A DNA stretch of 64,000 bases, from NCBI RefSeq assembly GCF_003334255.1, contig NZ_QOWU01000009.1; one strand, 5' to 3'. The notes beneath the pieces were generated by a model that saw only the letters and a list, made by a program, of their open reading frames with translations, was not told the origin of the DNA and made no database searches. Position numbers and translations under genes: made by a program. This document shows, piece by piece, positions 15,568 to 15,623 of the stretch. Source of the stretch: Escherichia coli (GTDB lineage: Bacteria > Pseudomonadota > Gammaproteobacteria > Enterobacterales > Enterobacteriaceae). Numbering within the stretch: position 1 is the stretch's first letter; each line of letters begins with the position of its first letter.

Positions 15568-15623
15568 ATTCCCATAAACTCAGATTTACTGCTGCTTCAC
15601 GCAGGATCTGAGTTTATGGGAAT
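15568..15623 (+). promoter_or_regulatory. Inverted pair of 18-bp MelR-type operator sites in the melR-melAB control region
   Basis: attcccataaactcagat (15568-15585) and its exact reverse complement atctgagtttatgggaat (15606-15623), 20-bp spacer, 80-130 bp upstream of melA. Confidence 0.55.

What the first reader, a model, noticed from the sequence alone, without database searches (positions are those of the whole stretch)
15568..15623. Exact 18-bp inverted repeat pair in the melR-melAB divergent promoter
Two 18-bp sequences that are exact reverse complements flank a 20-bp spacer just upstream of melA. This is the geometry expected for paired MelR operator sites, which would bind MelR in opposite orientations.
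Basis: partly seen in the sequence, partly recalled or inferred. Interest (0 to 1): 0.25.

Follow-up and report, generated by a model that had tools for sequence, protein, structure and literature searches.

The report
Known MelR binding sites 1 and 2
The exact 18-bp inverted repeat is real. It is the long-characterised pair of MelR activator binding sites (site 1 and site 2) in the E. coli K-12 melibiose regulatory region, so it is correct but ordinary textbook biology.

Summary
15568-15585 (ATTCCCATAAACTCAGAT) and 15606-15623 (ATCTGAGTTTATGGGAAT) are exact reverse complements separated by 20 bp. This is the longest exact inverted repeat in the 64-kb window and far beyond chance. The window is 100% identical to E. 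coli K-12 here and lies between melR and melAB. Published geometry fits to the base. If the right arm is site 2 (-174.5 from the melR start), the melR -10 falls on CATAAT, the melAB start lies 237 bp away, and site R has the published G5/A13. So the arms are MelR site 1 (-100.5) and site 2 (-62.5), with the weak CRP1 site in the spacer. The pair belongs to a five-site MelR plus two-site CRP array. Across 76 of 78 melR-orthologue loci (Escherichia to Vibrio) the inverted pair recurs. The spacer is 20 bp in 72 loci and 21 bp in 4, and its sequence is not conserved. Each arm is conserved in two blocks, as expected for a two-helix-turn-helix protein, and changes are mostly uncompensated, which argues against a hairpin role. 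Loci with MelR S273 instead of R273 have changed base 13 of the arms. Verdict: already known, low interest.

The parts
15568..15585 (-). MelR site 1 (left arm), centred at -100.5 relative to the melAB transcription start. It reads as the consensus ATCTGAGTTTATGGGAAT on the - strand.
   Evidence: Exact sequence. The -100.5 position follows from site 2 at -62.5 plus the 38-bp centre-to-centre distance. [quoted passage not shown] Conserved next to melR orthologues in 76 of 78 loci.
15586..15605 (.). 20-bp spacer holding the weak CRP site CRP1, centred at -81.5. The length is conserved and the sequence is not.
   Evidence: [quoted passage not shown] The core TGTGA-N6-TCACA match is only 5/10 at the central register. 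Across 71 distinct loci the mean is 3.61/10, against 2.46 +/- 0.16 for shuffled spacers. Spacer length is 20 bp in 72 loci and 21 bp in 4, with information content near zero.
15606..15623 (+). MelR site 2 (right arm), centred at -62.5 from the melAB start, which equals -174.5 from the melR start.
   Evidence: The -174.5 position and the 237-bp separation of the two starts come from PMC2377442. G at positions 5 and 13 are the bases contacted by N222 and R273.
15548..15565 (+). MelR site 1' (about -120.5), the weaker partner of site 1. By sequence it reads in the same direction as site 2 (12/18 to consensus, G5 and G13 present).
   Evidence: 12/18 in + orientation against 5/18 in the opposite orientation. 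The CTCTGCTTTT block is strongly conserved across 75 distinct loci. The existence of site 1' is stated in PMC2377442. The -120.5 coordinate is recalled from Belyaeva 2000 and Grainger 2003 and was not checked in a held paper.
15626..15643 (+). MelR site 2' (about -42.5). It overlaps the melAB -35 region, is a very weak consensus match, and is occupied only with melibiose.
   Evidence: Melibiose-dependent occupation of site 2' is stated in PMC2377442. The sequence match is only 3/18 and cross-species conservation is moderate (GGAAG, GGA). The exact coordinates are inferred from the recalled -42.5 position.
15430..15447 (-). MelR site R, overlapping the melR transcription start. This is the autorepression site and has the same orientation as site 1.
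   Evidence: 11/18 to consensus in that orientation against 3/18 in the other, with G at position 5 and the non-consensus A at position 13, exactly as described in PMC2377442. It is invariant in 7 E. coli alleles.
15471..15492 (.). CRP2 site, centred 41.5 bp upstream of the melR start. It is required for melR transcription.
   Evidence: The core TGCGAGTGGGAGCACG (15474-15489) scores 7/10, joint best in the intergenic region. [quoted passage not shown]
15440..15452 (-). melR promoter core: transcription start at 15440 (A) and -10 hexamer CATAAT at 15447-15452.
   Evidence: CATAAT is given as the melR -10 element in PMC2377442 and PMC6392122.
15665..15677 (+). melAB promoter core: inferred -10 hexamer CATGAT at 15665-15670 and transcription start at 15677 (A), 24 nt before the melA ATG.
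   Evidence: Derived from the published 237-bp distance between the two starts. The hexamer assignment is an inference from position.
14510..15418 (-). melR, the AraC/XylS-family regulator that binds the arms.
   Evidence: NCBIfam NF007693 MelR equivalog, 635.8 bits (cut-off 253). Pfam HTH_18 and two HTH_AraC domains. RefSeq annotation.
15701..18580 (+). melAB operon, the regulated target: melA alpha-galactosidase (15701-17056) and melB melibiose:Na+ symporter (17159-18580).
   Evidence: NF011657 at 735.9 bits and NF007749 at 900.9 bits. RefSeq annotation.

Best explanation
The two arms are MelR binding sites 1 and 2 of the E. coli K-12 melR-melAB divergent regulatory region. Each 18-bp arm is an asymmetric site bound by one MelR monomer. 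Its two helix-turn-helix motifs read two major-groove blocks about 10 bp apart: TCTGAG around base 5 (contacted by N222) and GGGA around base 13 (contacted by R273). Because the arms are inverted, the two monomers face in opposite directions. Each arm is paired with a weaker neighbouring site (1' and 2'), and CRP binds weakly in the 20-bp spacer. Without melibiose, MelR occupies sites 1', 1, 2 and R. It represses melR and leaves melAB poised. [quoted passage not shown] Shown here: the sequence, the base-exact fit to the published geometry, the conservation and bipartite constraint of the arms, and covariation with MelR residue 273. Taken from the literature: the binding, the footprints and the regulatory logic.
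For: The repeat is exact and highly non-random. The region is 100% identical to K-12 MG1655 between the annotated melR and melA genes. MelR, MelA and MelB pass their NCBIfam cut-offs, and MelR has AraC-type HTH domains. [quoted passage not shown] reproduces all of these landmarks when the right arm is taken as site 2. Cross-species: the inverted pair is present in 76 of 78 usable melR-orthologue loci, with a 20-bp spacer in 72 and 21 bp in 4. Shuffled controls score at most 23/36 with scattered spacers. The distance from the right arm to the conserved KITFIGAGS motif near the melA N-terminus is 91-93 bp in most Enterobacteriaceae; conservation is bipartite (positions 2-7 and 13-16), with positions 11-12 and 17-18 free; all 6 loci with S273 in MelR have a non-G base at position 13 in one or both arms, while 64 of 69 loci with R273 keep G in both.
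Against: Nothing substantive. The identification therefore rests on the exact fit of geometry and diagnostic bases, not on reading the printed site sequence. By sequence alone the CRP1 site is weak (5/10 core matches). Within E. coli, the lower variability of the arms compared with the rest of the intergenic region is not significant with only 7 alleles (5/36 vs 53/246, p = 0.2). The residue-273 covariation comes from one clade and is probably a single evolutionary event.
Confidence: 0.97

Rival explanations
1. The inverted repeat acts as a nucleic-acid structure: a DNA cruciform, or an RNA hairpin serving as terminator, attenuator or small RNA.
For: As single-stranded DNA the region folds into a perfect 18-bp stem (-20.5 kcal/mol, z = -8.3). 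This follows trivially from any exact inverted repeat. Within-locus arm complementarity slightly exceeds that of arms paired between loci (14.4 vs 13.87).
Against: Both mapped promoters fire away from the repeat (starts at 15440 leftward and 15677 rightward), so it is in neither mRNA. There is no T-run and no terminator-like site. Rfam gives only far-sub-threshold matches to plant miRNA precursors (27 bits against a gathering score of 101.7). Across 68 distinct arm pairs, 213 changes hit one arm only, against 52 concerted changes. Four of the 18 positions (11, 12, 17, 18) are free to vary, which a maintained stem would not allow. Other genera have only 8-17/18 complementarity.
Confidence: 0.01
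2. The arms are terminal inverted repeats or a remnant of a mobile or repetitive element (a REP or MITE-like element).
For: Short inverted repeats in intergenic DNA are typical of such elements.
Against: There is one place per genome in 3,968 E. coli genomes (median 1), and only these two copies of the 18-mer in the window. The position relative to melR and melA is fixed across dozens of genera. No transposase or target duplication was seen.
Confidence: 0.005
3. The palindrome is the operator of a different symmetric dimeric regulator, with MelR binding elsewhere.
For: Perfect dyad symmetry is typical of dimeric repressor operators.
Against: The half-site centres are 38 bp apart, too far for one compact dimer. 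The sites co-occur with melR orthologues and paralogues specifically. Base 13 covaries with MelR residue 273. Footprinting in the literature assigns these sites to MelR. ChIP and knockout work finds MelR targets essentially only at the mel locus (PMC11642480).
Confidence: 0.01

Closest known systems
MelR sites 1 and 2 of the E. coli K-12 melAB/melR regulatory region (Webster et al. 1989; Belyaeva et al. 2000; Grainger et al. 2003; Samarasinghe et al. 2008)
   Same: Everything matches: the organism-level sequence (100% identity to MG1655), the 18-bp length, identical sequences in inverted orientation, the positions relative to both transcription starts, the CRP site between them, and the diagnostic G5 and G13.
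   Different: Nothing. This is the same element.
AraC sites I1-I2, O1 and O2 in the araC-araBAD divergent region
   Same: An AraC-family regulator with asymmetric sites of about 17-18 bp, each read by two HTH motifs. The regulator and catabolic operon are divergent. CRP is a co-activator located between regulator sites, the regulator represses its own gene, distant sites cooperate, and the promoter-proximal site is occupied only with sugar.
   Different: MelR uses four clustered sites plus site R. According to PMC2377442 it forms a compact four-MelR repression complex rather than a simple O2-I1 loop. The strong sites 1 and 2 are inverted and flank CRP, whereas AraC I1-I2 is a direct repeat bound by one dimer.
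RhaS/RhaR and ChbR sugar-operon promoters
   Same: AraC-family activators that depend on CRP at divergent or complex promoters.
   Different: The site sequences and arrangements differ, and they have no identical inverted 18-mers flanking the CRP site.

Membership tests
MelR site 1 / site 2 pair of the mel regulatory region | Two identical 18-bp copies of the MelR consensus in inverted orientation | tested here: met
   (18/18, 20-bp spacer). [quoted passage not shown] The printed consensus itself could not be read, because it is in a figure that is not held.
MelR site 1 / site 2 pair of the mel regulatory region | Published positions: site 2 at -174.5 from the melR start; melR start 237 bp upstream of the melAB start; melR -10 = CATAAT; CRP2 about 41 bp upstream of the melR start | tested here: met
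   CATAAT falls exactly at -12 to -7 (15447-15452). Both predicted starts are A. The best CRP core is centred at -41.5.
MelR site 1 / site 2 pair of the mel regulatory region | Consensus G at positions 5 and 13 (contacts of N222 and R273). Site R has G5 but non-consensus A13 and is oriented opposite to site 2. | tested here: met
   (site R 15430-15447: 11/18 in the site-1 orientation, G5, A13). (literature). N222 and R273 are present in the encoded MelR.
MelR site 1 / site 2 pair of the mel regulatory region | Adjacent divergent melR and melAB genes | tested here: met
   (NF007693, NF011657 and NF007749, all above their cut-offs).
MelR site 1 / site 2 pair of the mel regulatory region | Direct physical binding of MelR (DNase I, Fe-BABE, EMSA) | not testable with these tools
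   Reported for K-12 DNA in PMC2377442 and the earlier papers it cites. The window is 100% identical to K-12 here.
MelR site 1 / site 2 pair of the mel regulatory region | A CRP site between sites 1 and 2 | tested here: inconclusive
   Only 5/10 core matches at the central register. Across genera the mean is 3.61, against 2.46 +/- 0.16 for shuffled spacers. The literature states that CRP1 lies there.
AraC/XylS-family monomer binding site | An asymmetric site of about 18 bp with two conserved blocks about one helical turn apart, one per HTH motif | tested here: met
   positions 2-7 and 13-16 are nearly invariant in both arms across 68 distinct pairs, and positions 11-12 and 17-18 are free. Pfam finds two HTH_AraC motifs in MelR.
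Structured RNA or intrinsic terminator | Transcribed; stem maintained by compensatory changes; T-run or a match to a known family | tested here: not met
Repetitive or mobile element (REP/MITE) | Multiple dispersed copies per genome | tested here: not met
   (single locus per genome).

The most novel reading that the evidence does not exclude
The finding itself is fully explained, but the comparative data point to two things that are not described in the papers I could read. (a) The paired-site cassette (inverted 18-mers with a fixed 20-bp spacer of free sequence) is ancient, running from Vibrionaceae to Enterobacteriaceae. Its recognition code appears to have been re-tuned in a Buttiauxella-type clade, where MelR R273S coincides with G13 changing to A or C in both arms. 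(b) A MelR paralogue in Citrobacter, Buttiauxella and Superficieibacter keeps the same cassette next to non-melibiose genes (a CigR-family gene and an NhaC-type antiporter), which would mean the module has been co-opted for another regulon.
Probability: 0.4. Interest if true: 0.25.

Novelty: already known. Interest (0 to 1): 0.06.

Why it matters
It matters little as a discovery. The mel regulatory region has been a model system for co-dependent activation by an AraC-family regulator and CRP since the late 1980s, and these two sites are its defining feature. The result does validate the first-stage reader, which recognised a real transcription-factor site pair from raw sequence. The comparative analysis adds modest support for the published MelR-DNA contact model, through the bipartite constraint on each arm and the covariation of residue 273 with base 13. 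It also shows that spacer length, not spacer sequence, is the conserved parameter.

Tried and rejected
(1) I tried to read the original mapping papers by PMC id: PMC146657, PMC1447455, PMC125794, PMC1138231, PMC306891 and PMC522211. None is held. No supplement is held for PMC2377442.

(2) A full-text search for the site sequence itself found no papers. A search for the -100.5/-62.5 positions gave only noise.

(3) An Rfam scan at a permissive threshold gave only plant miRNA-precursor hits, 18-27 bits against gathering scores of 100-107. I rejected these as generic hairpin matches.

(4) The consensus promoter/terminator scan found nothing. This fits activator-dependent promoters and does not contradict the mapped starts.

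(5) A Fisher test on 7 E. coli alleles, asking whether the arms are less variable than the rest of the intergenic region, gave p = 0.2. That is too few sequences, so I replaced it with the 78-locus cross-genus comparison.

(6) I tried to place site 2' by sequence similarity. It matches the consensus at only 3/18 in the expected orientation, so its coordinates rest on the recalled -42.5 position.

(7) PMC4308713 was read for site information and contains none.

Full report
OBSERVATION. The reported feature is present exactly as described. Window 15568-15585 (ATTCCCATAAACTCAGAT) and 15606-15623 (ATCTGAGTTTATGGGAAT) are perfect reverse complements separated by 20 nt (TTACTGCTGCTTCACGCAGG). The repeat cannot be extended by one base in either direction. 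It is the longest exact inverted repeat with a spacer of 60 nt or less in the 64-kb window; the next longest are 15, 15 and 14 nt. Twenty dinucleotide-preserving shuffles gave maxima of 10-14 nt, and the analytic expectation for 18 nt or more is about 6e-5. Allowing three mismatches, the 18-mer matches only these two places in the window, against 0.03 expected. Imperfect complementarity continues outward, giving 42-nt arms at 76%.

CONTEXT. The 411 bp around the repeat are 100% identical to E. coli K-12 MG1655 and lie between the annotated melR and melA genes. The flanking ORFs pass curated NCBIfam cut-offs: MelR (NF007693, 635.8 bits against 253), alpha-galactosidase MelA (NF011657) and the melibiose:Na+ symporter MelB (NF007749). 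MelR carries the AraC-type double helix-turn-helix (HTH_18 and two HTH_AraC domains).

IDENTIFICATION. Samarasinghe et al. 2008 (PMC2377442) describe five 18-bp MelR sites (2', 2, 1, 1' and R) and two CRP sites. They state the following:
- CRP1 lies between site 1 and site 2.
- Site 2 is centred at -174.5 from the melR start.
- The melR start is 237 bp upstream of the melAB start.
- The melR -10 hexamer is CATAAT, which PMC6392122 also reports.
- CRP2 lies about 41 bp upstream of the melR start.
- Site R overlaps the melR start, has the consensus G at position 5 and a non-consensus A at position 13, and is bound in the opposite orientation to site 2.

I tested this against the window by taking the right arm as site 2. 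The predicted melR start is 15440 (an A on the minus strand), and CATAAT falls exactly at -12 to -7 (15447-15452). The predicted melAB start is 15677 (A), 24 nt before the melA ATG, with CATGAT at -12 to -7. The 18-mer at the melR start (15430-15447) matches the consensus at 11/18 in the site-1 orientation, against 3/18 in the other, with G5 and A13 as published. The best CRP core in that part of the region (TGCGAGTGGGAGCACG, 7/10) is centred at -41.5. The right arm is therefore site 2, at -62.5 from the melAB start. The left arm, 38 bp further upstream, is site 1 at -100.5. The spacer centre is at -81.5, the CRP1 position. DNase I footprints of sites 1/1', 2 and R are reported in the same paper. 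ChIP and knockout data summarised in PMC11642480 indicate that MelR has essentially no targets outside the mel locus.

COMPARATIVE EVIDENCE. Within E. coli, the identical 56-bp unit is present at a single locus in 2,066 of 5,426 complete genomes. About 1,000 genomes carry a roughly 89%-identical allele of the intergenic region. In 7 representative alleles the variable columns concentrate between CRP2 and site 1' (26 of 55) and in the spacer (8 of 20). The arms carry isolated single changes (5 of 36), and arm complementarity is 16-18/18. Exactness is therefore not itself conserved.

A scan of one genome per species with the MelR protein returned 80 loci, from Escherichia, Citrobacter, Salmonella, Klebsiella, Raoultella, Kluyvera, Pantoea, Serratia, Buttiauxella and Providencia through to Vibrio and Photobacterium. 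Of the 78 loci with upstream DNA, 76 contain the inverted pair. The spacer is 20 bp in 72 and 21 bp in 4. Shuffled controls never exceeded 23/36 matches and showed no spacer preference. In most Enterobacteriaceae the right arm ends 91-93 bp before the conserved KITFIGAGS motif near the melA N-terminus. The per-column information content peaks on the two arms and on site 1' (CTCTGCTTTT), and is near zero in the spacer. The spacers nevertheless score slightly above shuffled spacers for a CRP core at the central register (3.61 against 2.46 +/- 0.16 of 10; the window scores 5/10). This fits a weak CRP site that depends on the activator.

MECHANISM VERSUS RIVALS. A structural role (cruciform or RNA hairpin) is the obvious alternative, because the stem is very stable (-20.5 kcal/mol, z = -8.3). 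Several results count against it:
- The repeat lies upstream of both divergent starts, so it is not transcribed from either promoter.
- It has no terminator features.
- It matches no RNA family at threshold.
- Its evolution is not that of a stem. Among 68 distinct arm pairs, 213 changes affect one arm only, against 52 concerted and 32 discordant double changes.
- Constraint on each arm is bipartite. Positions 2-7 (TCTGAG) and 13-16 (GGGA) are nearly invariant, while positions 11-12 and 17-18 are free.

This is the pattern expected for an AraC-family monomer whose two HTH motifs read adjacent major grooves, with N222 at base pair 5 and R273 at base pair 13. There is also direct protein-DNA covariation. 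All six loci whose MelR has Ser at 273 (and His at 269) have A or C instead of G at position 13, in both arms in five loci and in one arm in the sixth. Of the 69 loci with Arg273, 64 keep G in both arms. By my own arithmetic on the counts, Fisher's exact p is about 2e-6, but these six loci form one clade and probably reflect a single event. A mobile or repetitive element is excluded by the single-copy status and the fixed position.

HOW IT WORKS. The sequence and conservation results are shown here, and the regulatory logic is from the literature. One MelR monomer binds each arm, and the two face in opposite directions. MelR also occupies site 1' and site R without melibiose. Together these repress the CRP-dependent melR promoter through a compact four-MelR complex and leave melAB poised. 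Melibiose allows MelR to occupy the weak site 2' at the melAB -35 region, and CRP sits in the 20-bp spacer. [quoted passage not shown] The conserved 20-bp spacer, which puts the site centres 38 bp apart, is what accommodates the CRP dimer between the two MelR pairs.

VERDICT. The element is already known in full and is of low interest. Some points remain unverified. The -120.5 and -42.5 coordinates of sites 1' and 2' come from my memory of Belyaeva 2000 and Grainger 2003. The orientation I infer for site 1' (the same as site 2) could not be checked against the published figure.

Noticed in passing
Loci L050, L052, L053, L054, L057, L059 (melR orthologues; arms about 190-250 bp upstream of melR): MelR has S273 and H269 instead of R273 and R269 in these loci, and position 13 of the 18-bp arms is A or C instead of G (both arms in 5 loci, one arm in 1). 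Of the 69 loci with R273, 64 keep G in both arms. This is natural covariation at the published R273-base pair 13 contact. It comes from one clade and is probably a single event.
   Followed up: partly
L055, L056, L058, L060, L064-L072 (e.g. L066 2313-2368): A second melR-like gene (73-81% identical) in Citrobacter, Buttiauxella and Superficieibacter keeps the same inverted 18-mer pair with a 20-bp spacer, but has no melA next to it. In L066 the divergent neighbour is a CigR-family protein (NF040487) and the downstream gene is an NhaC-type antiporter. The regulon is uncharacterised.
   Followed up: partly
window 15548-15565: Site 1' matches the MelR consensus at 12/18, including G5 and G13, when read in the same direction as site 2, i.e. 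inverted relative to its neighbour site 1. It matches at only 5/18 in the site-1 direction. The CTCTGCTTTT block is among the most conserved in the intergenic region across genera. I could not check this against the published orientation figure.
   Followed up: partly
window 15431-15457 and 15660-15686: The melR and melAB core promoters share an inverted motif, CCTGCCAT(A/G)AT, that contains both -10 hexamers (CATAAT and CATGAT) in the same register relative to their transcription starts (27-nt arms, 74% complementary). I did not test its significance. An 8-mer match in a region this size could be chance.
   Followed up: no
window 15493-15547: The stretch between CRP2 and site 1' is the hypervariable part of the intergenic region within E. 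coli, with 26 of 55 columns variable among 7 alleles. About 1,000 of 5,426 genomes carry an allele only about 89% identical overall. This fits a spacer in which only length and helical phase matter, as in the 5-bp and 10-bp deletion results of PMC2377442.
   Followed up: partly
L087 (Kluyvera sichuanensis) 1900-2500; L082 (Raoultella terrigena): These are the only two loci without the site pair. In L087 a site-R-like sequence and a -10-like sequence are retained next to melR, and unrelated DNA with no melA follows, which suggests a rearrangement or insertion. L082 was not examined further.
   Followed up: partly
L057: This contig is labelled 'Chryseobacterium sp. 18061' but carries an enterobacterial-type melR (81% identical) with the mel cassette of the Buttiauxella type. 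It is probably a contaminant or mislabelled contig in that assembly.
   Followed up: no
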